A stretch of 63,931 nt of DNA, counting the filler, from Vicugna vicugna (Eukaryota), in assembly GCA_013265495.1 (NCBI GenBank). It is 84 parts of 79 records of this genome, joined end to end, with 100 filler letters (N's around TTAATTAATTAA, not from the genome) between each part and the next. Parts side by side here need not be neighbours in the genome. Positions count along the whole stretch, not along the records: positions 27,225 to 27,794 come from PNXW01000684.1; 83 more parts are not named here. One strand, written 5' to 3'. The notes below the pieces were generated by a model, which worked only from the letters and a program-made list of their open reading frames with translations, did not search any database and had not been told where the DNA came from. Made by a program: the position numbers and the translations under genes. Below, piece after piece: positions 10,337 through 62,345 of this stretch. Each line of letters begins with the position of its first letter. The first letter of the stretch is position 1.

Positions 10337-11427
10337 ATGGAGAAATTACAACAAACAAAATAGAAATATAGAATATCATACAAAAATATTATGAAAAAGT
10401 ATATGGAACCAAACTAGATAACCTAGAGGAGATGGACAAGTTTCTGGAAACATACTGTCCACCAAAACTGAATCAAGAAGAAACTGAACACTTGAACAAT
10501 CCGATCACTAGAAATGAAATAGAAATAGCAATTAAAAACCTCCCTACAAATATAAGTCCAGGACCGGATGGCTTCCCCGGGGAATTCTACAAAACATACA
10601 AAGAAGAACTCATACCAGTCCTTCTCAAAGTCTTCCAGACGATTGAAAAGGAGGGAATACTCCCAAACTCATTCTATGAAGCCACCATCATCCTGATACC
10701 AAAACCAGGCAAAGACACTACAAAAAAAGAGAATTATAGGCCAATATCACTGATGAAAATAGACGCCAAAATCCTCACCAAAATTTTAGCAAATAGAATC
10801 CAACAACACATAAAAAAGATTATACATCATGACCAAGTGGGGTTCATCCCAGGGACACAAGGCTGGTTCAACATANNNNNNNNNNNNNNNNNNNNNNNNN
10901 NNNNNNNNNNNNNNNNNNNNNNNNNNNNNNNNNNNNNNNNNNNNNNNNNNNNNNNNNNNNNNNNNNNNNNNNNNNNNNNNNNATAGAGGGAACATATCTC
11001 AACATAATAAAAGCTATATATGACAAACCTACAGCCAGCATAGTACTCAACGGTGAAAATCTCAAAAGCTTCCCACTAAAATCTGGACAAGACAAGTATG
11101 TCCACTATCACCACTCCTATTCAAAATAGTCCTGGAAGTCCTAGCCACAACAGTCAGACAAGAGAAAGAAATAAAAGGGATCCAAATTGGAAAAGAAGAG
11201 TTAAAAGTGTCATTATATGCTGATGACATGTTACTATATATAGAAAACCCTAAAAGGTCCACACAAAAGTTTCTAGAGCTGATTGAAGAATTCAGCAAGG
11301 TAGCAGGTTACACAATTAACGTTCAAAAATCAGTTGCATTTCTTTACACTAATGATAAATCAACTGAAAAAGAAAGTAAAGAAACACCCCTTTAAAATAG
11401 CACCCAAAGTAATAAAATATCTGGGAA
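10337..11427 (+). mobile_element. LINE-1 ORF2 fragment (Z domain and RT), young subfamily
   Basis: ORF 10432-10875 includes [43 protein letters not shown] catalytic motif at 11216-11227. Small frameshifts near 11086 and 11388. Confidence 0.96.
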
Positions 11428-13651: not shown

Positions 13652-14514
13652 CAGAACACAGAATTTAGAATATAAATTACAGAATACTGAATATAGTATG
13701 TAGATTATAGAATGTAGAACACAGAATATAGATTATAGAATAGAGAATATAGAATCAGGAATTTAGAACATGGAATGCAGAACACAGAATTTAGAATATA
13801 CAATTCGGGATACTGAATATAGAATTTCGAATATATTATGTAGAACACAGAATGAAGAACATACAATACCGAATGCAGAATATAGAATACAGTATATAGA
13901 ATGTAGAAAACAGAATATAAAATATTGAAAACAGAATACAAAACTCATAATTTAGTATATTGAGTATAGAACACAGAATTTAGAATATACAATTCGGGAT
14001 ACTGAATATAGAATTTCGAATATATTATGTAGAACACAGAATGAAGAACATACAATACCGAATGCAGAATATAGAATACAGTATATAGAATGTAGAAAAC
14101 AGAATATAAAATATTGAAAACAGAATACAAAACTCATAATTTAGTATATTGAGTATAGAACACAGAATTTAGAATATACAATATGGAATACTGAATATAG
14201 AATTTCGAATATATTATGTAGAACACAGAATAAAGAACATACAATACGGAATGCAGAATATAGAATACAGAATATAGAATGTAGAAAACAGAATATAAAA
14301 TATAGAAAACAGAATACAAAACTCATAATTTAGTACATTGAGTATAGAACACAGAATTTAGAATATACAATATGGAATACTGAATATAGAATTTCGAATA
14401 TATTATGTAGAACACATAATAAAGACCATAGAATACGGATTGTAAAATATAGAATACAGAATAGGAATATAGAACACAGAATATAGAATATAGAATAGGG
14501 AATATAGAACCCAG
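13652..14514 (+). repeat. Satellite C: (AGAATAT)-heptamer-based AT-rich satellite with 189-bp higher-order repeat
   Basis: CAATTCGGGA at 13801 and 13990; TTTAGTA at 13951, 14140 and 14329 (period 189). Confidence 0.93.
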
Positions 14515-14614: not shown

Positions 14615-15494
14615 GCAGGAGGGGCCCCACCTGGCTCCTCCCGGCCCCAGTGGCCAGGGTCGGTAAACCAGGAGACCCACCCGAGCAGTTTGCGCTGCGG
14701 GCGGGAGGAGGAGGGGCGCGCACGCGCAGACGGAAAGACGCGCGGACGCCGGAACCCGCCCAGAACGCGTGGAAGCTGGTGGCAGCCGGTTGCTCCTGGA
14801 CCAGCTCCTGGAAGAGGAACAAGCCGCTTGCACGCGGCTCGGCTGCCGCTGCCGGGCAGTTAAGGGGGCGCTGGTGGGGGCGCGCTGCTCGGGGAGCCGG
14901 CGGGTGACTCCTGGGCTGTGCAGCTGAGGAGACGCCCAGGGAGGGGTGCGGAGGTGAGATCCCGGCCTCGCGTCCCGTTAGGACACTGAGTCGGGTCCCA
15001 GCCGCTGCTGTGGTTCGTGGTAACCCCGGTATTAGTAGTTCCTGAACCCCGCGTTTTTGCTGCCGCTTCTACCCGGGTTTAGGAGAGCAGGTACAGCCCC
15101 AGGAGGTGGGAGGGCGCCGGACGGCTCCGGAGCATCTCCGACTAGCCCTCAGACGATGCCCTGCCCCTGGCAGGCAGGTGCGGTGCAGTCGCGGGGCCTC
15201 GGATGGAATGGGTGCTGCCCCATGGGAGCCCCTGGGTTTGCTCCCATCTTCCCGGCGGCCTGACCTTGGGGGCGGCCTCTAAAGCACCAGGTTCGTGGGA
15301 CTCAGGTTACAGGTCAGTCTGCTCCTGGGAGGTGGGCTCGGTGCGATCAGTGTGCTGGGATGGCTGCAGCAGCAGCGGGAAATTGTCGCAACCCCGGCGC
15401 TCCCACAAGGCTGCCCCAATCCCGCCATCGCAACCGCTGCCTTTCCCTTACAGTACAGCACCCGCCTTCCAGGAGCAGGCTGACCTGTAACCTG
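14615..15494. promoter_or_regulatory. CpG island, probable promoter/first exon of an unidentified gene
   Basis: High GC and CpG density. NRF1-consensus CGCGCACGCGCA (14717-14728), GC box and CCGGAA; donor-like GAG|GTGAGA at 14953/14954. Confidence 0.65.
15303..15494. repeat. 34-bp inverted repeat (31/34 match) with 124-bp spacer
   Basis: 15303-15336 CAGGTTACAGGTCAGTCTGCTCCTGGGAGGTGGG versus the reverse complement of 15461-15494, CAGGTTACAGGTCAGCCTGCTCCTGGAAGGCGGG. Confidence 0.9.
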
Positions 15495-18131: not shown

Positions 18132-19269
18132 GAATATAGAATATAGAACACGGAATGCAGAATATATTATACAGAAAATAGAATGTAGAACACAAAGTAT
18201 AGAATATGAAAAACAGAATAGAGAACCCAGAATTTAGAACATGGAATGCAGAACACATAATTTAGAATATAGAATACAGAATAATGAATATAGAAATAAG
18301 AATATAGAATGTAGAACACAGAATATAGGATATACTATATAAAATATAGAAACCAGAATTTAGAACGTGGAATGCAAACACAGAATTTAGAATATATAAA
18401 ACAGAATACTGAATATAGAATTTAGAAAATAGAATGCAGAACACAGAATTTAGAATATAGGAAACAGAACACTGAATATAGAGATAAGAATTANNNNNNN
18501 NNNNNNNNNNNNNNNNNNNNNNNNNNNNNNNNNNNNNNNNNNNNNNNNNNNNNNNNNNNNNNNNNNNNNNNNNNNNNNNNNNNNNNNNNNNNNNNNNNNN
18601 NNNNNNNNNNNNNNNNNNNNNNNNNNNNNNNNNNNNNNNNNNNNNNNNNNNNNNNNNNNNNNNNNNNNNNNNNNNNNNNNNNNNNNNNNNNNNNNNNNNN
18701 NNNNNNNNNNNNNNNNNNNNNNNNNNNNNNNNNNNNNNNNNNNNNNNNNNNNNNNNNNNNNNNNNNNNNNNNNNNNNNNNNNNNNNNNNNNNNNNNNNNN
18801 NNNNNNNNNNNNNNNNNNNNNNNNNNNNNNNNNNNNNNNNNNNNNNNNNNNNNNNNNNNNNNNNNNNNNNNNNNNNNNNNNNNNNNNNNNNNNNNNNNNN
18901 NNNNNNNNNNNNNNNNNNNNNNNNNNNNNNNNNNNNNNNNNNNNNNNNNNNNNNNNNNNNNNNNNNNNNNNNNNNNNNNNNNNNNNNNNNNNNNNNNNNN
19001 NNNNNNNNNNNNNNNNNNNNNNNNNNNNNNNNNNNNNNNNNNNNNNNNNNNNNNNNNNNNNNNNNNNNNNNNNNNNNNNNNNNNNNNNNNNNNNNNNNNN
19101 NNNNNNNNNNNNNNNNNNNNNNNNNNNNNNNNNNNNNNNNNNNNNNNNNNNNNNNNNNNNNNNNNNNNNNNNNNNNNNNNNNNNNNNNNNNNNNNNNNNN
19201 NNNNNNNNNNNNNNNNNNATAGAACACTGAATATAGAATATAGAACACGGAATGCAGAATATGGAATAC
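18132..19269 (+). repeat. Satellite C (heptamer-based AT-rich)
   Basis: AGAATAT, AGAACAC, AGAATTT and GGAATGC heptamer variants in tandem. Confidence 0.92.
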
Positions 19270-26006: not shown

Positions 26007-26602
26007 GGGGTGATTGCAGAATATCCCAGTGTCAGAGGCTGCCTCCCCCAGTTCAGGGAAGGTATTCCTCGGACTTTCCCGAACAGGGAATACCTGTGAA
26101 TGAAGAGAGCTGCGTGGAGTTGTCTCTCGAGCTCCCCCACGCACTGACAATGGTTCCGGAATCCTGAGCGTGGGGAGGTTCCACCAACGGTCGGCAGCGC
26201 GTGGGTTCTAACGGAAAGCCTAAGNNNNNNNNNNNNNNNNNNNNNNNNNNNNNNNNNNNNNNNNNNNNNNNNNNNNNNNNNNNNNNNNNNNNNNNNNNNN
26301 NNNNNNNNNNNNNNNNNNNNNNNNNNNNNNNNNNNNNNNNNNNNNNNNNNNNNNNNNNNNNNNNNNNNNNNNNNNNNNNNNNNNNNNNNNNNNNNNNNNN
26401 NNNNNNNNNNNNNNNNNNNNNNNNNNNNNNNNNNNNNNNNNNNNNNNNNNNNNNNNNNNNNNNNNNNNNNNNNNNNNNNNNNNNNNNNNNNNNNNNNNNN
26501 NNNNNTGTACAGGGATGTGATTGAAGAGAGCTCCTTGGAGTTGTCTCTCGGGCTCCGCCACGCACTGACCATGTTTCCGGAATCCTGAGCGTGGGGAGGT
26601 TC
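26007..26602 (-). repeat. Satellite A
   Basis: Diagnostic satellite A motifs. Confidence 0.93.
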
Positions 26603-26702: not shown

Positions 26703-27124
26703 AGAATATACAATACAGAATACTTAATATAAATTTACAGTATTGACAGTTGAACACAGTGTATAGAATATAGAATACGGAATACTGAATATAGAATTTA
26801 GAATATAGAATTTAGAACACTGAATAGAGAATATAGAATACGGAATGCAGAATATAGAATTTAGAATGTAGAACACAGAATAGAGAACATAGAATAGAGT
26901 ATATGGAACACAAAATATAGAACATGAAATGCAGAACACAGAATTTACAATATAGAATACAGAATACTGAATAAAGAATTTAGTATATAGAATGAAGAAC
27001 ACTGAATAGAGAATACGGCATGCAGAATATACAATAAAGAAAATAGAATGCAGAACAGAGAATTTAGAATATAGAATGGAGAATACTGTATATAGAATTT
27101 AGAATATAGAATGAATAACACAGA
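26703..27124 (+). repeat. Satellite C
   Basis: AGAATAT heptamer variants. Confidence 0.92.
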
Positions 27125-27224: not shown

Positions 27225-27794
27225 CCACCACGGCGCTCATCAATTGCCTCAAACTGATCTACTGGATAGTTTCAGGTCCATTGCCTGGGCAGCCCCTCCT
27301 CTGTCCCCCAGCTTCTTTGTGCCTTGTGCGCCCCCTGGTGGCTGGGTGGGCCAGCCAAGGATGCTCCTGTTGCTCCAGCCCACCCCTGCTTCGCAGGGAG
27401 TTGAGAACCCTCCACATCTGGGAACAGACCCAAGCGGCACCACAGCAGGGCCGAGTCCAGGAGGCGGTCTCGCACCCGTGCACGCGGCACTCACGCCCTC
27501 TGCCCACGGAGGGCCCTGCCCGCAAGCACCACAGCCTGCACCCTGGCGCGGCAGCACCCCCCCAGCCTGTCCCCCGCAGTGGTCCTCCACAGACCGGGCA
27601 GCATCCGGCTCAGCCATGTAGCCCCCACGCGGCAGTTCTGCAGCCTGAACAGGCCGAGACACACCTGTGGCAGCAGCAGGCCCCATCGGATCAACTCACG
27701 ACTCCTCCGCTCCACCGGCATCCACAGCCTTGAGGCGCCAGAGGCTCAAGGAGCCTCTTAGACGAACTCTTGTCAGACCCCAGCGTTCTGGAAA
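27225..27794 (+). pseudogene. DUXC: DUXC/DUX4-like C-terminal region, disrupted copy (homeoboxes not in this scaffold)
   Basis: Pro/Gln/Ala-rich frames (LLLQPTPASQG; GAAAPPQPVP) end in SLLDELLSDPSVLE (27752-27793), resembling DUX4 LLLDELLASPEFLQ. In-frame TGA at 27731 and apparent frame changes. Recognised from memory of the family, not by a search. Confidence 0.6.
27327..27342 (-). promoter_or_regulatory. CTCF consensus site
   Basis: The minus strand reads GCCACCAGGGGGCGCA, matching the CTCF core consensus. Confidence 0.6.
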
Positions 27795-27894
27795 NNNNNN
27801 NNNNNNNNNNNNNNNNNNNNNNNNNNNNNNNNNNNNNNTTAATTAATTAANNNNNNNNNNNNNNNNNNNNNNNNNNNNNNNNNNNNNNNNNNNN

Positions 27895-28310
27895 TCCGGC
27901 TCCTTCTGGCCTGTGGAGAGCTGGCCGCGTCTGTTGGGATCCCCGCCCGGCGGCTGCGCCTGTGGCGCTGACGTGGCTCCCGGAAGTGGCGCTGTCGCGA
28001 GGCCGCCATGTTGCAGCAGGTGAGGAGCTGTGGGCGCCGGGAGAGGGCGGCGGCGGCGGCGGCGGCGGCGGCTGGGCCCGAGGAGGAGCGGGGTGGGCGG
28101 CGGGCGGGACGGCCGGCGCTGGTGTCCGGGGAGTGCGGCCTAGGCTGCGCTGAGGAGGGCCAGCGCGGGTGTGAGGTCCGCGGGGTCGCTCTGTGTGTCC
28201 CCACCGCTCGTGAGCCGGCGAGGGGCAGGCAGTCGCCGCCCTGGACGTGGGTTACGGGACCCGCCGGGCCTGGCGTCCAGGTTTATGCCGTCAAAGCAGG
28301 TGGTTAAGGG
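27895..28310 (+). promoter_or_regulatory. TVP23B: CpG-island promoter / 5' UTR and start of intron 1
   Basis: CRE half-site TGACGT (27969), ETS CCGGAAGTG (27980), YY1-type CCGCCATGTT over the ATG, and (GGC)9 at 28046-28072. Confidence 0.75.
28008..28019 (+). CDS. TVP23B: First coding exon (MLQQ) of Golgi membrane protein TVP23 homolog B (FAM18B)
   Basis: GCCGCC-ATG TTG CAG CAG followed by the donor GTGAGG. As I recall, mammalian TVP23B begins MLQQDSNDD, with a very similar 5' UTR (GCTGACGTGGCTCCCGGAAGT..GGCCGCCATG). Confidence 0.72.
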
Positions 28311-29097
28311 TCGGTCCCTTCCCATGCTCACATCTGTTCCTCAGAGTTAATTACAGCCCTCACGTCTACGACCCCAGACTAGTGAGAAGAAGAATCTCTT
28401 CCTATTTAAAAAAGCACTGTTTATCGTGCACTTTAACTTGGGTTATCATAGCTGTTTTTTCTGAGGGATTTCTGTGGCCCAGCCGCTGGCCCAGGCCCTG
28501 CGGAAGGGCTGTGTAAACAATGCAGTTTCCTGCCCGGGTTTGGAGTGTTAATGCTTGTCCAGGGATTGAGTGGGGAGATGAAATAAGTTACAGAGATAAA
28601 GATATTTCAGATAACAACAGCATAGACGGTGATGTGATAGCAAGTATCTGAGAATGGAACAGCCTAGCGATTTGCGGTCAGGAAGGACCACTCTGAGGAG
28701 GTGACGTGAGTGGAGAAAATACAGTGATGGTCTGAACCTGCAGGAGGCTGGAGAAAAACACAGCCATACTGACCGTTCCTTCTTAAGTTTGTGACCACGC
28801 ACCTCAAGGGAGCCCGGGGGNNNNNNNNNNNNNNNNNNNNNNNNNNNNNNNNNNNNNNNNNNNNTTAATTAATTAANNNNNNNNNNNNNNNNNNNNNNNN
28901 NNNNNNNNNNNNNNNNNNNNAAGTCTGTTTTCAGTCAAAGTGCTGTGGGTTTTAAGTGGGAGAATGATAATGATCTAATGGGAAAATGTCACCCTGGTTA
29001 CTGGATGGCAAGGCCTCAGCATGTTCTTCTGTGGCATCACGTGGTGCATCTCAGTCTTGGCTGCACGTGAGCATTATCTGGGGAGCTGAGTCAGGGT

Positions 29098-29633: not shown

Positions 29634-31080
29634 AGCGCGTGGGTTGTAACGGAATGCCTAAGCTCGTCTCCCCTGATAGTTTTTCTAATGACTCTGTGCC
29701 AGGGAATGCAAGGGATGATTGTAGGATATCCCAGTGTCAGAGGCTGCCTCACCAAGGTCATGGAAGTTTTTTCTCGGACTTCCCCGAACAGGGAACACCT
29801 GTGACTGAAGAGAGCTTCGTGGAGTTGTCTCTCGAGCTCCCCCACGCACTGACAATGGTTCCGGAATCCTGNNNNNNNNNNNNNNNNNNNNNNNNNNNNN
29901 NNNNNNNNNNNNNNNNNNNNNNNNNNNNNNNNNNNNNNNNNNNNNNNNNNNNNNNNNNNNNNNNNNNNNNNNNNNNNNNNNNNNNNNNNNNNNNNNNNNN
30001 NNNNNNNNNNNNNNNNNNNNNNNNNNNNNNNNNNNNNNNNNNNNNNNNNNNNNNNNNNNNNNNNNNNNNNNNNNNNNNNNNNNNNNNNNNNNNNNNNNNN
30101 NNNNNNNNNNNNNNNNNNNNNNNNNNNNNNNNNNNNNNNNNNNNNNNNNNNACCAACGGTCTGCAGCGCGTGGGTTCAAACGGAATGCCTAAGCTCGTGT
30201 CCCCTGAGGATTTTCCTAATGTCTCCTTGCCAGGGAATGCTAGGGGTGATTGCAGGAATTCCCAGTGTCAGAGGCTGCCTCCCCAAAGTCAAGGAAGTTA
30301 TTCCTTGGACTTCCCCGAAAAGGGAACACCTGTGACTGAATAGATTTGCGTGGAGTTGTCTCTCGAGCTCCCCCACGCACTGACAATGGTTCCGGAATCC
30401 TGAGCGTGGGGAGGTTCCACCAACGGTCGGCAGCGCGTGGGTTCTAACGGAAAGCCTAAGCTCGTCTCCNNNNNNNNNNNNNNNNNNNNNNNNNNNNNNN
30501 NNNNNNNNNNNNNNNNNNNNNNNNNNNNNNNNNNNNNNNNNNNNNNNNNNNNNNNNNNNNNNNNNNNNNNNNNNNNNNNNNNNNNNNNNNNNNNNNNNNN
30601 NNNNNNNNNNNNNNNNNNNNNNNNNNNNNNNNNNNNNNNNNNNNNNNNNNNNNNNNNNNNNNNNNNNNNNNNNNNNNNNNNNNNNNNNNNNNNNNNNNNN
30701 NNNNNNNNNNNNNNNNNNNNNNNNNNNNNNNNNNNNNNNNNNNNNNNNNNNNNNNNNNNNNNNNNNNNNNNNNNNNNNNNNNNNNNNNNNNNNNNNNNNN
30801 NNNNNNNNNNNNNNNNNNNNNNNNNNNNNNNNNNNNNNNNNNNNNNNNNNNNNNNNNNNNNNNNNNNNNNNNNNNNNNNNNNNNNNNNNCACTGACAATG
30901 TTTCCGGAATACTGAGCGTGGGGAGGTTCCACCAACGGTCGGCAGCGCGTGGGTTCTAACGGAAAGCCTTAGCTCGTCTCCCCTGAGATTTTTCCTATTG
31001 TCTCTGCCCCAGGGAATGCTAGGGGTGATTTCAGAATATCCCAGTGTCATAGGCTGCCTCCCCAAGTTCAGGGAAGGTTT
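29634..31080 (-). repeat. Satellite A
   Basis: Three contigs of monomers; a full monomer lies within 30152-30469. Confidence 0.95.
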
Positions 31081-31180
31081 NNNNNNNNNNNNNNNNNNNN
31101 NNNNNNNNNNNNNNNNNNNNNNNNTTAATTAATTAANNNNNNNNNNNNNNNNNNNNNNNNNNNNNNNNNNNNNNNNNNNN

Positions 31181-31963
31181 CCAATTTAAAAGAGCCTATA
31201 TGATCAAATAATCAGACATAACTTGCAAACAAATTCACTTTGATTTGACTATATTTGATAAAAATGAGGGAACTTTAGAGAGAAAAAGGATATATTTTAG
31301 TGGATATTAAATTCTAGTTCTGTTAATTGAGGTCTATATTTACTAAGACACTTCCCAGATCATTCCTTGCTGTTATGTCACATTTCTGTACAGTTTAACT
31401 GAATTATGAAAAGGATACACTAGCTTTGTTTCTGAAGCTGAGTAATCTATCCTTGGGTAAAGTTTCAATGCAGCATGACCTGCAGCCAGGGGATTATACC
31501 TACTGGAACAAGCATGACTAAAAGAACTGTCTCCAACCTGAATGGAAGGACTCTTTATCAGGTACTCTTAACTAGACCATACACAGCAAAGCTGAAGGAA
31601 ACGTAGTTTCTGATTCATTTCCTATCAGAAACAGCCCCTGCAGTCACTGGCCTATAGAGCACTGCTCACCTTAAAACAATGCCCAAATGGAGAAAAAACT
31701 ACCAGGCCAGGATAAGAAGGAGACGATATCAGAGGTAGACAGCTGACCCAAGACACCGGACCAGGCCTCTATATCAATTACTTTTACAATCTCTCCTACC
31801 TTTGATTATGAACTTCTCCAATTGTTAAGTTTATGGTAATTTACCTATGTCTAGTACTTCTGTGTTACCTTGGTGGGTTTCCCTACTCCAAGGCTCTAAC
31901 TAGATAAAGAAAATTTACTCTAAAAAGAAATTATAGTTCTGTTTAGGCCACAGTTGATATTAC
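31181..31963 (+). mobile_element. Degenerate ERV1-class internal sequence including the integrase C-terminus
   Basis: From 31480 it reads LQPGDYTYWNKHD*KNCLQPEWKD, then after a frameshift YQVLLTRPYTAKLKE. This matches the gammaretrovirus-like LQPGD..PRWKGPYQVLLT motif. Confidence 0.8.
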
Positions 31964-32063
31964 NNNNNNNNNNNNNNNNNNNNNNNNNNNNNNNNNNNNN
32001 NNNNNNNTTAATTAATTAANNNNNNNNNNNNNNNNNNNNNNNNNNNNNNNNNNNNNNNNNNNN

Positions 32064-32955
32064 CGCACTGACAATGGTTCCGGAATCCTGAGCGTGGGGA
32101 GGTTAAACTCACGGTCGGCAGCGCGTGCGTTCTTACGGAATGCCTAAGCTTATCTCCCCTGAGGTTTTTCCTAATGTCTCTATGCCAGGGAATGCTAGAG
32201 GTTATTGCAGGATATCCCAGTGTCAGAGGCTGCCTCTCCAAGTTCAGGGAAGTTATTTCTCGAACTTCCCCGAACATGGAACACCTGTGATTGTATTGAG
32301 CTGCGTGGAGTTGTCTCTCGAGCTCCCCCATGAACTGACAATGGTTCCGGAATCCTGAGCGTGGGGAGGTTCCACCAACGGTCGGCAGCGNNNNNNNNNN
32401 NNNNNNNNGGAACACCTGTGATTGTATTGAGCTGCGTGGAGTTGTCTCTCGAGCTCCCCCATGAACTGACAATGGTTCCGGAATCCTGAGCGTGGGGAGG
32501 TTCCACCAACGGTCGGCAGCGTGTGGGATCTAACGGAATGACTAAGCTCGTCTCCCCTGTGCTTTTTCCTAATATCTCAGTGCCAGGGAATGCTGGGGTT
32601 GATTTCAGGATATCCTAGTGTCAGAGGCTGCCTCCCCATGGTCAGGGAAGGTATTTCTCGGACTTCCCCGAACAGGGAACTCCTGTGACTGAATAGACCT
32701 GCGTGGAGTTGTCTCTCGAGCTCCCCCACGCACTGACAATGGTTCCGGAATCCTGAGCGTGGGGAGGTTCCACCAACGGTCGGCAGCGCGTGGGTTCTAA
32801 CGGAATGCCTAAGCTCGTCTCCCCTGAGGATTTTCCTAATGTCTCTGTGCCAGGGAATGCTAGGGGTGATTGCAGGATATCCCAGTGTCAGAGTCTGCCT
32901 CCCGAAGATAAGGGAAGTTCTTTCTCGGACTTCCCCGAACAGGGAACTCCTGTGA
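32064..32955 (-). repeat. Satellite A; period measured as 267 bp
   Basis: ACTGACAATGG at 32067 and 32334, and at 32465 and 32732 (267 apart in both pairs). Confidence 0.96.
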
Positions 32956-33055
32956 NNNNNNNNNNNNNNNNNNNNNNNNNNNNNNNNNNNNNNNNNNNNT
33001 TAATTAATTAANNNNNNNNNNNNNNNNNNNNNNNNNNNNNNNNNNNNNNNNNNNN

Positions 33056-33548
33056 TTTCTGGGAAGGTATTGCTCAGACTTCCCCGAACAGGGAACCCAC
33101 ATGTGACTGAAGATAGCTGCGTGGAGTTGTCCCTCGAGGTCCCCCACGCACGGAGAATTCTTCCGGAACCCTGAGCGTGGGGAGGTTCCACCAACGGTCG
33201 GCAGCGCGNNNNNNNNNNNNNNNNNNNNNNNNNNNNNNNNNNNNNNNNNNNNNNNNNNNNNNNNNNNNNNNNNNNNNNNNNNNNNNNNNNNNNNNNNNNN
33301 NNNNNNNNNNNNNNNNNNNNNNNNNNNNNNNNNNNNNNNNNNNNNNNNNNNNNNNNNNNNNNNNNNNNNNNNNNNNNNNNNNNNNNNNNNNNNNNNNNNN
33401 NNNNNNNNNNNNNNNNNNNNNNNNNNNNNNNNNNNNNNNNNNNNNNNNNNNNNNNNNNNNNNNNNNNNNNNNNNNNNNNNNNNNNNNNNNNNNNNNTTCC
33501 CCGGAGGGTTTTCCTAATGTCTCTCTGCCAGGGAATGCAAGGGGGGAT
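33056..33548 (-). repeat. Satellite A
   Basis: Variant monomers (CACGGAGAATTCT variant shared with 38194). Confidence 0.92.
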
Positions 33549-59414: not shown

Positions 59415-60303
59415 AATGCAGAACACAGAATTCAGAATATAGAATACAGAAAAATGAATATAGGATTTAGAAAATGGAATGCAGAACACACAATTTAGAC
59501 TATAGAATACAGAATACTGAATATAGATTTTATAATTTAGAATGCAGAACACAGAATATTGAATATAGAATAGAGAATATAGAATCCAGAAATATATTGA
59601 ATATAGAATAGAGAATATAGAATCCAGAAATTAGAGCATGGAATGCATAACACAGAATTTGAATATAGAATAGATAATAATGAATATAGAATTTAGAACA
59701 TTGAATGCGGAAACAGAAAATAGACAATAGAATACAGTATACTGAATATAGAAATAAAAACATAGAATGCAGAACACAGAATTTACAATATATAATATGA
59801 AGAGTGAATATAGAATATAGAATGTAGAACACAGAATATACAATAGAGTATACGGAATGCAGAATATAGAATACAGAAAATAGAATGTAGAACAGAGAAT
59901 ATAGAATATGGAAAACATAATACAGAAACAAGAATAGAGAACATGGAATGCAGAACACACAATTTAGAATATAGAAAACAGAATAATGAATAAAGAATTT
60001 AGAACATAGAGTGCAGAACACAGAATTGAGAATGTAGAATAAAGAATACTGAATATACAATTTAGAATATGGAACACAGAATATAGAATATAGAATCCAT
60101 AATTTTGAATAAAGGATTTAGAATTTGGAATGCAGAACACAGAATTTAGAATATAGAATACAGAATACTGAATATATAATATACAAAATTTAATGCAGAA
60201 CACAGAATTAAGAATATACAATACACAATACTGAAATTAGAATTTTGACTATAGAATATAGAACACAGAATTCTGGATATAGAATACATAATACTCAATA
60301 TAG
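59415..60303 (+). repeat. Satellite C
   Basis: Heptamer variants; local 35-bp duplication near 59556-59630. Confidence 0.92.
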
Positions 60304-61428: not shown

Positions 61429-62345
61429 TTTCCTAATGTCTCTTTGCCAGGGAATGCTAGGGGTGTTTGTAGGTTATCCCAGTGACATCCGCTGCCTCCC
61501 CAAGGTCAGGGAATATATTTCTCGGACTTCCCCGAACAGGGAACACCTGTGACTGAAGAGAGCTGCGTGGAGTTGTCTCTCGAGCTCCCCCACGCACTGA
61601 CAATGGTTCCGGAATCCTGAGCGTGGGGAGGTTCCACCANNNNNNNNNNNNNNNNNNNNNNNNNNNNNNNNNNNNNNNNNNNNNNNNNNNNNNNNNNNNN
61701 NNNNNNNNNNNNNNNNNNNNNNNNNNNNNNNNNNNNNNNNNNNNNNNNNNNNNNNNNNNNNNNNNNNNNNNNNNNNNNNNNNNNNNNNNNNNNNNNNNNN
61801 NNNATGAAGAGAGCTGCGTGGAGTTGTCTCTCGAGCTCCCCCACGCACTGACAATGTTTCCGGAATCCTGAGCGTGGGGAGGTTCCACCAACGGTCGGCA
61901 GCGCGTGGGTTCTAACCGAATGCCTAACCTCGTCTCCAGTGAGGTTTTCCTAATGTCTCTGTGCCAGGGAATGGTATGGGGGTTGCAAGATATCCCAGTG
62001 ACATACGCTGCCTCCACAAAGTCAGGGAAGGTTTTTCCCGGACTTCCCCGATCAGGGAAATTCTGTGAATGAAGAGAGCTACGTGGAGTTGTCTCTAAAG
62101 CTCCCCCACGCACTGACAATGGTTCCGGAATCCTGAGCGTGGGGAGGTTCCACCAAACGTCGACAGAGCGTGGGTTCTAACGAAATGCCTAAGCTCGTCT
62201 CCCCTGAGTGTTTTCCTAATTTCTCTGTGCCAGGGAATGCTAGGGGTGTTTGCAGGATATCCCAGTGACATACGCTGCATCCCCAAGTTCAGGGAAGGCA
62301 TTTCCCAGACTTCCCCGGACAGGGAACTCCTGTGACTGAAGAGAG
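61429..62345 (-). repeat. Satellite A
   Basis: About 3 monomers with an internal gap. Confidence 0.95.

What the first reader, a model, noticed from the sequence alone, without database searches (positions are those of the whole stretch)
27225..27794. Orphan DUXC/DUX4-like C-terminal fragment, invisible to the ORF track
Seen: a GC-rich scaffold with Pro/Gln/Ala-rich frames. After the TGA at 27731 the same frame continues GARGSRSLLDELLSDPSVLE to the scaffold edge. Known: DUX4/DUXC zygotic-genome-activation factors carry a conserved LLDELL-type motif before the acidic activation domain, and laurasiatherian DUXC sits in tandem macrosatellite arrays that collapse in short-read assemblies. Inference: this is one unit of a camelid DUXC array, either pseudogenised or mis-assembled (frame change, possibly at the C7 run near 27556-27562, plus the stop).
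Basis: partly seen in the sequence, partly recalled or inferred. Interest (0 to 1): 0.75.

Follow-up and report, generated by a model that had tools for sequence, protein, structure and literature searches.

The report
Broken copy of camelid DUXC gene
This is a piece of a broken copy of DUXC, a known early-embryo switch gene; the piece is ordinary, but related animals seem to carry many unbroken, still unannotated copies of the same stretch.

Summary
Confirmed in substance. The 570-bp piece encodes residues 195-382 of camelid DUXC: 154 of 188 identical to dromedary DUXC, 130 of 142 to a South American camelid-type copy, ending just past the first LLDELL motif. In four other animals' DNA the dominant, very deep contigs are about 5% different and have neither lesion, so this is not a standard array unit. 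A low-depth paralog in three of four runs departs from the array at the same five 3' sites, the stop site included, so the stop is probably real and old. Differences cluster at both ends: a mosaic, from gene conversion (favoured) or an assembly join. Upstream homeoboxes and expression could not be tested. DUXC arrays, dromedary included, are published. The by-product is more interesting: depth ratios suggest roughly 15 to 150 copies, while no full-length alpaca DUXC was among the 120 listed protein hits. New member of a known kind; interest 0.3.

The parts
27225..27794 (+). Whole unplaced piece: internal part of the last coding exon of a DUXC copy, cut at both ends by the assembly
   Evidence: Spacers on both sides; collinear with dromedary DUXC 195-382 with no intron-sized gap; exon assignment inferred from the published five-exon structure
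27226..27522 (+). DUXC Pro/Ala/Gly-rich linker, residues 195-293 (dromedary numbering), open
27522..27528 (+). 4-nt insertion (near-duplication GCA-A-GCA; placement slides within this span) that shifts the frame
   Evidence: absent from the high-depth contigs of 4 of 4 runs
27523..27621 (+). 32 off-frame codons ending at TAG 27619-27621: where a ribosome reading the DUXC frame would stop
27527..27730 (+). DUXC residues 294-361 in the shifted frame, incl. the conserved AETHLWQQQ stretch
27557..27563 (+).
   Evidence: no indel or table 4
27731..27733 (+). Premature TGA at the place of Ser362
   Evidence: high-depth contigs of 4 of 4 runs read the Ser codon; one low-depth contig in each of 3 of 4 runs does not
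27755..27772 (+). LLDELL, first (L)LxxL(L) motif of the DUXC/DUX4 activation domain; the second motif would start about 24 codons beyond the edge
   Evidence: motif definition PMC10195082
27125..27224 (.). Synthetic spacer (N44, six-frame stop linker, N44): the left neighbour is not a true neighbour
27795..27894 (.). Synthetic spacer: the right neighbour is not a true neighbour

Best explanation
The piece is part of the last coding exon of a real but disabled DUXC copy of a South American-type camelid (shown: DUXC identity, two lesions, closest relatives). It is a diverged copy at an array edge or dispersed outside it, not a standard unit (inferred). Its ends keep the letters of an older decayed paralog, the stop included, while its middle is close to the dominant array unit, as expected after partial gene conversion or unequal crossing-over with the array, followed by private changes such as the 4-nt insertion (inferred). 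It makes no working activator: translation in the DUXC frame ends at 27619, before both LxxLL-type motifs that DUX4 needs to activate targets (motif need from PMC10195082). The working gene is the many-copy unit that is open across this stretch and, by family knowledge, acts briefly in cleavage-stage embryos.
For: 154/188 identity to dromedary DUXC with exactly one insertion and one stop. 14 of 17 diagnostic residues follow the alpaca-type unit, 2 the camel type, 1 neither; tree groups it with alpaca-type copies at 85% (147 columns). High-depth contigs lack the 4 nt (X1 4178/8711 at 27522 and all 4178 of the depth at 27525; X6 9924/10390; X14 556/581; X18 74.5/125) and read the Ser codon (X1 4670/4700, X6 6938/6938, X14 577/581, X18 265/281). 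One low-depth contig in each of X1, X14, X18 departs from the array letter at all of 27701, 27717, 27721, 27724, 27732 (by subtraction); chance about 1e-4 to 1e-5 for five sites (probably one orthologous paralog, so one test). Differences from the array cluster at the ends: 14 in 123 nt against 13 in 405 nt, Fisher p 0.0015 with borders chosen after looking, permutation p 0.006 for two clusters. The middle still has letters seen in no laid contig of any run (27359, 27370, 27465, 27619). The window keeps the camel residue at 250 and 365 where all four alpaca-type proteins differ. Other frameshifted alpaca copies (P0005, P0124), a dolphin pseudogene inside an array and diverged, silent end units in cattle show that such copies are usual.
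Against: No listed contig spans the window's own haplotype, and the insertion was seen in none of X1, X14, X18 (X6 leaves 124 of 10049 depth unexplained) (72 rows and 294 pieces not shown). The low-depth contigs that share the 3' sites differ from the window at 26/264, 48/348 and 50/393 letters, so they are not this copy. That they carry the window's letter, rather than a third letter, is deduced by subtraction. The assembly is fragmentary and repeat-rich (84 pieces of 119-1548 nt), where false joins are common. pN/pS between window and array is 0.44 (p 0.046 against neutral), not the 1 of a long-dead copy, although it mixes both lineages. The word-share test did not separate the models.
Confidence: 0.65

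Rival explanations
1. Assembly chimera: reads of the array (middle) and of one or two old DUXC pseudogenes (ends) were joined through identical stretches, with some local errors. The stop is real in a paralog, but this 570-bp haplotype does not exist.
For: End-clustered differences; the 3' sites match a separate low-depth contig that runs on unbroken into unlike sequence (X1 record 7); identical stretches of 50-70 nt between window and array lie in the middle (positions); no contig holds the insertion for certain.
Against: Several mid-piece letters occur in no laid contig, so the middle is not a plain array copy; the insertion is 4 nt and outside a homopolymer; contigs are stated to drop rare variants, so a single near-array copy could be missing from them.
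Confidence: 0.24
2. A truncated, DUX4c-like product: if the upstream exons are whole, the copy encodes two homeodomains, the linker and a 32-residue new tail (about 325 aa) without the activation domain, and competes with DUXC for its sites.
For: The frame is open up to the insertion; the early stop lies in the last coding exon, so decay of the mRNA may be avoided (inference); human DUX4c has this anatomy and antagonises DUX4 (PMC9490378; PMC10514451); predicted length 325 aa.
Against: No more constraint before the insertion than after it (pN/pS 0.60 against 0.33, Fisher p 0.70, few changes); the insertion is not seen in other animals; upstream exons and promoter unknown; in cattle the diverged end unit is not expressed.
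Confidence: 0.06
3. An intact array unit corrupted by sequencing errors alone.
For: 14 of the 27 listed differences are transversions, more than usual for mammalian decay (own knowledge), and they bunch near the ends.
Against: 27 substitutions plus a 4-nt insertion in 530 nt; the same sites vary in low-depth contigs of three runs; four differences (27419, 27616, 27617, 27635) are array variants in X1; camel-type residues kept at two sites.
Confidence: 0.04

Closest known systems
Dromedary DUXC (RefSeq 'double homeobox protein 4-like protein 4', XP_064352192.1; the DUXC_dromedary_chr17 of PMC13558733)
   Same: Collinear over residues 195-382, 154/188 identical, same LLDELL context
   Different: Window copy has an insertion and a stop, follows the alpaca type at 14 of 17 diagnostic sites; dromedary has 3 units of 8,878 bp plus one copy in its long-read assembly
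Alpaca 'uncharacterized' DUXC C-terminal models XP_072796991.1 (open, P0128), XP_072796960.1 and XP_072796936.1 (frameshifted, P0005, P0124) and the unnamed open unit P0129
   Same: 123, 120, 121 and 130 of 142 residues identical; P0129 agrees with the high-depth letters at the 10 listed amino-acid-changing sites from residue 243 on
   Different: Their lesions, where present, are other ones; none is annotated with homeodomains or named DUX
Diverged or defective units of DUXC arrays in cattle, dolphin and megabat
   Same: Disabled or altered copies beside homogeneous intact units
   Different: Position relative to the array is unknown here
Human DUX4c (DUX4L9)
   Same: Single diverged copy whose C-terminus is cut off by a lesion after the homeodomains
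   Different: DUX4c is intronless, has intact homeodomains and is expressed; none of that is shown here, and the lesion is independent

Membership tests
DUXC/DUX4 clade | Conserved C-terminal domain, first motif LLDELL | tested here: met
   27755-27772, aligned to camel and whale DUXC; definition in PMC10195082
DUXC/DUX4 clade | Second (L)LxxL motif at the C-terminus | not testable with these tools
   Lies about 24 codons beyond the edge; present in the closest relatives P0128, P0129, P0002; no hit elsewhere in the window
DUXC/DUX4 clade | Two upstream homeoboxes | not testable with these tools
   Piece starts about 35 codons after homeodomain 2; no homeobox hit in the window; no genome held; the best full-length relatives carry PF00046
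DUXC/DUX4 clade | Sequence descent from camelid DUXC rather than DUXA/DUXB or a low-complexity look-alike | tested here: met
   5 of 5 hits are camelid DUXC-type; the open relative P0129 finds 21 representatives, led by camelid and whale DUXC-type proteins (12 of the 21 unnamed); DUXA and DUXB lack this domain
DUXC (intron-containing) versus retroposed DUX4/Dux type | Five exons with introns inside the homeoboxes | not testable with these tools
   Only last-exon sequence is present
DUXC macrosatellite | Many near-identical copies | tested here: met
   For the family in 4 of 4 runs: deep contigs 13-175 times deeper than diverged paralog contigs of the same run; a rough ratio, not a measured copy number
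DUXC macrosatellite | Head-to-tail tandem units of about 8-12 kb | not testable with these tools
   No contig spans even the 570 nt
DUXC macrosatellite internal unit | Near identity to the other units | tested here: not met
   About 5% from the dominant unit against 0.08-0.52 within published DUXC arrays
Functional DUXC gene | Open frame through the activation domain | tested here: not met
   Insertion leads to TAG 27619; TGA 27731
Functional DUXC gene | Expression in cleavage-stage embryos | not tested
DUX4c-like antagonist | Constraint on the part before the lesion; intact homeodomains; expression | tested here: inconclusive
   Only constraint tested: no difference before and after the insertion, few changes

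The most novel reading that the evidence does not exclude
South American camelids expanded DUXC into an array of tens to over a hundred units, and this copy is an independently evolved DUX4c-like brake beside it: two intact homeodomains, no activation domain, expressed in early embryos and competing with DUXC. The expansion alone, without the brake, is much likelier (about 0.6) and would deserve about 0.45.
Probability: 0.06. Interest if true: 0.65.

Novelty: new member of a known kind. Interest (0 to 1): 0.3.

Why it matters
The fragment itself matters little: broken copies beside DUXC arrays are known. It does mark a gap. Deep contigs in four animals hold an unbroken version of this stretch in what look like many copies, with a several-fold spread between animals, while the protein collections gave only unnamed alpaca C-terminal pieces and the published camelid count is 3+1 units in dromedary. 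If confirmed, alpaca and its relatives have a large, variable, unannotated DUXC locus, a candidate to test in embryo development and a comparison case for D4Z4-type array evolution. The diagnostic letters listed here also allow reads to be assigned to working or broken copies.

Tried and rejected
Own-genome search: no genome held. Pfam: 0 families for 4 of 4 translations; PDB: 0 hits for the 20-residue motif stretch; neither library covers this linker well, so no weight. No RNA holder listed. C7 run as the frameshift: rejected. Homeobox or the rest of the unit in another piece of the window: none; neighbours are artificial. CpG-decay signature as proof of a real pseudogene: 5 of 27 changes fit, but 3 of the 5 are array variants in X1, so dropped; AT-ward bias 17:3 not significant (p 0.064). 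Share of 31-mers held as a test for an exact 3' match in X1: expected 0.34 without and 0.42 with, observed 0.33 on 61 words: inconclusive, leaning against. Loss of DUXC in alpaca, suggested by the missing full-length hit: rejected once deep open contigs and open C-terminal proteins P0128, P0129 appeared. Alpaca satellite VpaSat05-8550 (8,550 bp, 63.5% GC; PMC13751797) as the DUXC unit: only its first 400 letters were readable, 0 of 4 motifs found there: untested. One site is unresolved: window Arg368 against Gly in all relatives has no matching row. Earlier scan notes: none on this sequence; one unrelated note.

Full report
Setting. The window is a string of 84 small unplaced pieces (119-1548 nt) joined by 83 synthetic spacers, many of them satellite DNA. 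The finding is one whole piece, 27225-27794, 65% GC. Its neighbours say nothing about its locus, and no genome is held.

Observation. TGA stands at 27731 and the frame runs on as GARGSRSLLDELLSDPSVLE to the edge; the frame from 27226 is open for 131 codons to TAG 27619. LL[DE][DE]LL occurs once in the six frames of the window.

Identity. The 131-residue frame, searched among proteins of 231-2000 residues, gave 5 hits among 1232 candidates: four dromedary 'double homeobox protein 4-like' proteins (E 2e-39 to 3e-36) and one alpaca 'uncharacterized' protein. A frameshift-aware alignment to dromedary P0002 covers residues 195-382 with 154 of 188 identical, one 4-nt insertion and one stop at Ser362. 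The insertion can be placed from 27522-27525 to 27525-27528; the C7 run (27557-27563) is not involved. By eye, P0121, a cluster mate of P0002, matches the DUXC_dromedary_chr17 sequence in the supplement of PMC13558733 over the part shown. A search of shorter proteins and their clusters added a wild-camel copy, an open alpaca C-terminal model (P0128) and an unnamed open unit (P0129). Over residues 240-382 the window is 130/142 identical to P0129, 120-123/142 to three alpaca models and 114-119/142 to the camel-type copies. At 17 sites where P0129 and dromedary differ, it follows P0129 at 14, dromedary at 2, neither at 1; a tree of 11 sequences groups it with the alpaca-type copies at 85%. So it is DUXC of South American camelid type (inference from sequence).

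Other animals. 20 runs of 5 coded organisms hold part of the stretch, at most 0.33 of its words. I laid 4 of these 20 (X1, X6, X14, X18; organisms A, B, D, E) at 80% likeness (40 rows shown, 72 not; 32 pieces shown, 294 not). In all four, very deep contigs dominate. They lack the 4 nt and read the Ser codon at 27731. The longest, 350 nt at depth 556 in X14, differs from the window by 17 letters and the gap. The 27 listed majority differences change 14 codons, 10 of them to the dromedary residue, and agree with P0129 where it overlaps. Beside them lie contigs 10-17% diverged at far lower depth. The ratio of deep to low contigs is 134-156 in X1, 113-175 in X6, 27-149 in X14 and 13-25 in X18. The tool warns that summed depth is no copy number; I used single-contig depths within a run and assumed the low class is single-copy, so these are rough. 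That the runs are South American camelids is inferred: the deep letters match alpaca residues, and one loose end in X14 reads QQPLLGTPGF as in alpaca P0005. Whether the deep unit has homeoboxes was not seen.

Are the lesions real? By subtraction, one low-depth contig in each of X1 (29.8), X14 (4.4) and X18 (15.8) departs from the array letter at all of 27701, 27717, 27721, 27724 and 27732, the sites where the window departs too; none covers this part in X6. Chance is about 1e-4 to 1e-5, counted once since they are probably one orthologous paralog. The simplest reading is that they carry the window's letters, TGA included; a third letter cannot be excluded. These contigs are not the window's copy (26/264, 48/348, 50/393 differences). 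The insertion is in no contig of X1, X14 or X18; X6 leaves 124 of 10049 depth open. Differences from the array bunch at the two ends (14 in 123 nt, 13 in the middle 405 nt; Fisher p 0.0015 with borders set after looking; permutation p 0.006 for two clusters, 0.22 for one; 8 of 33 against 5 of 110 residues versus P0129). The piece is therefore a mosaic. A real recombinant is favoured because the middle still holds letters found in no laid contig and because contigs drop rare variants close to a deep repeat; an assembly join stays possible. Against a long-dead copy, pN/pS is 0.44 (p 0.046), mixing both lineages; it does not differ before and after the insertion.

How it works. Shown: in the DUXC frame translation ends at 27619, 32 codons after the insertion, before LLDELL. 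From PMC10195082 (passages): DUX4 carries LLDELL and LLEEL, conserved in DUXC/DUX4, and mutants of either fail to activate ZSCAN4. So this copy cannot encode an activator. Inferred: it is a diverged edge or dispersed copy that exchanged sequence with the array. By family knowledge the open units act in cleavage-stage embryos (bovine DUXC cDNA and expression of internal, not distal, units: bioRxiv 10.64898/2026.03.05.709741, parts 1-3 of 7 read; its supplements not seen). A DUX4c-like role (PMC9490378 and PMC10514451, passages) needs intact upstream exons and expression, neither tested.

What is known. PMC13558733 (abstract, introduction, first part of section 7, passages, supplement 1 whole, passages of supplements 6, 9, 11; supplement 2 is a scan and was not searched) reports DUXC in dromedary as 3 units on chromosome 17 plus one copy, 72 units in hippopotamus, and names no alpaca or llama. 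PMC3004920 (passages) reports pseudogenes inside DUXC arrays of dolphin and megabat. Searches for DUXC with alpaca and with Vicugna gave 0 papers, with camel 1; searches listed none on South American camelid DUXC. The library lacks most subscription papers, among them a 2012 DUX macrosatellite survey that I recall and could not check. An alpaca satellite survey (PMC13751797; passages, parts 2-3 of 8, one cut supplement row) never uses the word DUX but lists an 8,550-bp GC-rich unit and a repeat block on chromosome 17; a link to DUXC is an untested lead. With P0002 as query, 120 of 283 hits were listed (8000 candidates scored, 243-776 residues) and no full-length Vicugna protein was among them; one about 88% identical should have ranked near the top.

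Verdict. The DUXC reading is right; the frameshift site is corrected; the piece is a disabled mosaic copy (0.65 real, 0.24 chimera). New member of a known kind, interest 0.3, most of it owed to the sign of a large unannotated DUXC array in South American camelids.

Noticed in passing
runs X1, X6, X14, X18 on window 27225-27794: An unbroken DUXC-type unit at roughly 13-175 times the depth of diverged paralogs, varying several-fold between animals; X1 carries array variants (27419, 27616, 27617, 27635) rare or absent in the deep contigs of the others
   Followed up: partly
proteins P0005, P0124, P0128: Three alpaca RefSeq models named 'uncharacterized protein' on one 55.6-Mb contig are DUXC last-exon pieces: two frameshifted, one open through the whole activation domain
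   Followed up: partly
X14 record 11 and X18 record 20: A further DUXC paralog about 17% diverged from the window, with its own gaps at 27452 and 27525, present in at least two organisms
   Followed up: no
PMC13751797 Table 2: VpaSat05-8550 (8,550 bp, 63.5% GC, amplified only in South American camelids) is close in size to the 8,878-bp dromedary DUXC unit; only 400 letters readable, no match there
   Followed up: partly
window 27895-28820: CpG island with a CCGGAAGT element, a good-context ATG at 28008 (MLQQ) followed by a GT donor-like site: looks like the first exon of a housekeeping gene; not a true neighbour
   Followed up: no
window 10372-11392: LINE-1 ORF2-like open stretches of 168 and 112 codons (family name recalled)
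   Followed up: no
window, e.g. 26007-26602, 29634-33548, 61429-62345: About 265-267-bp satellite family in many pieces, both strands, 60-94% alike
   Followed up: no
window 13652-14514, 18132-19269, 26703-27124, 59415-60303: AT-rich 7/14/21-bp-period simple satellite (GAATATA-like)
   Followed up: no
window 14615-15494: Second CpG-island piece (68% GC), not identified
   Followed up: no
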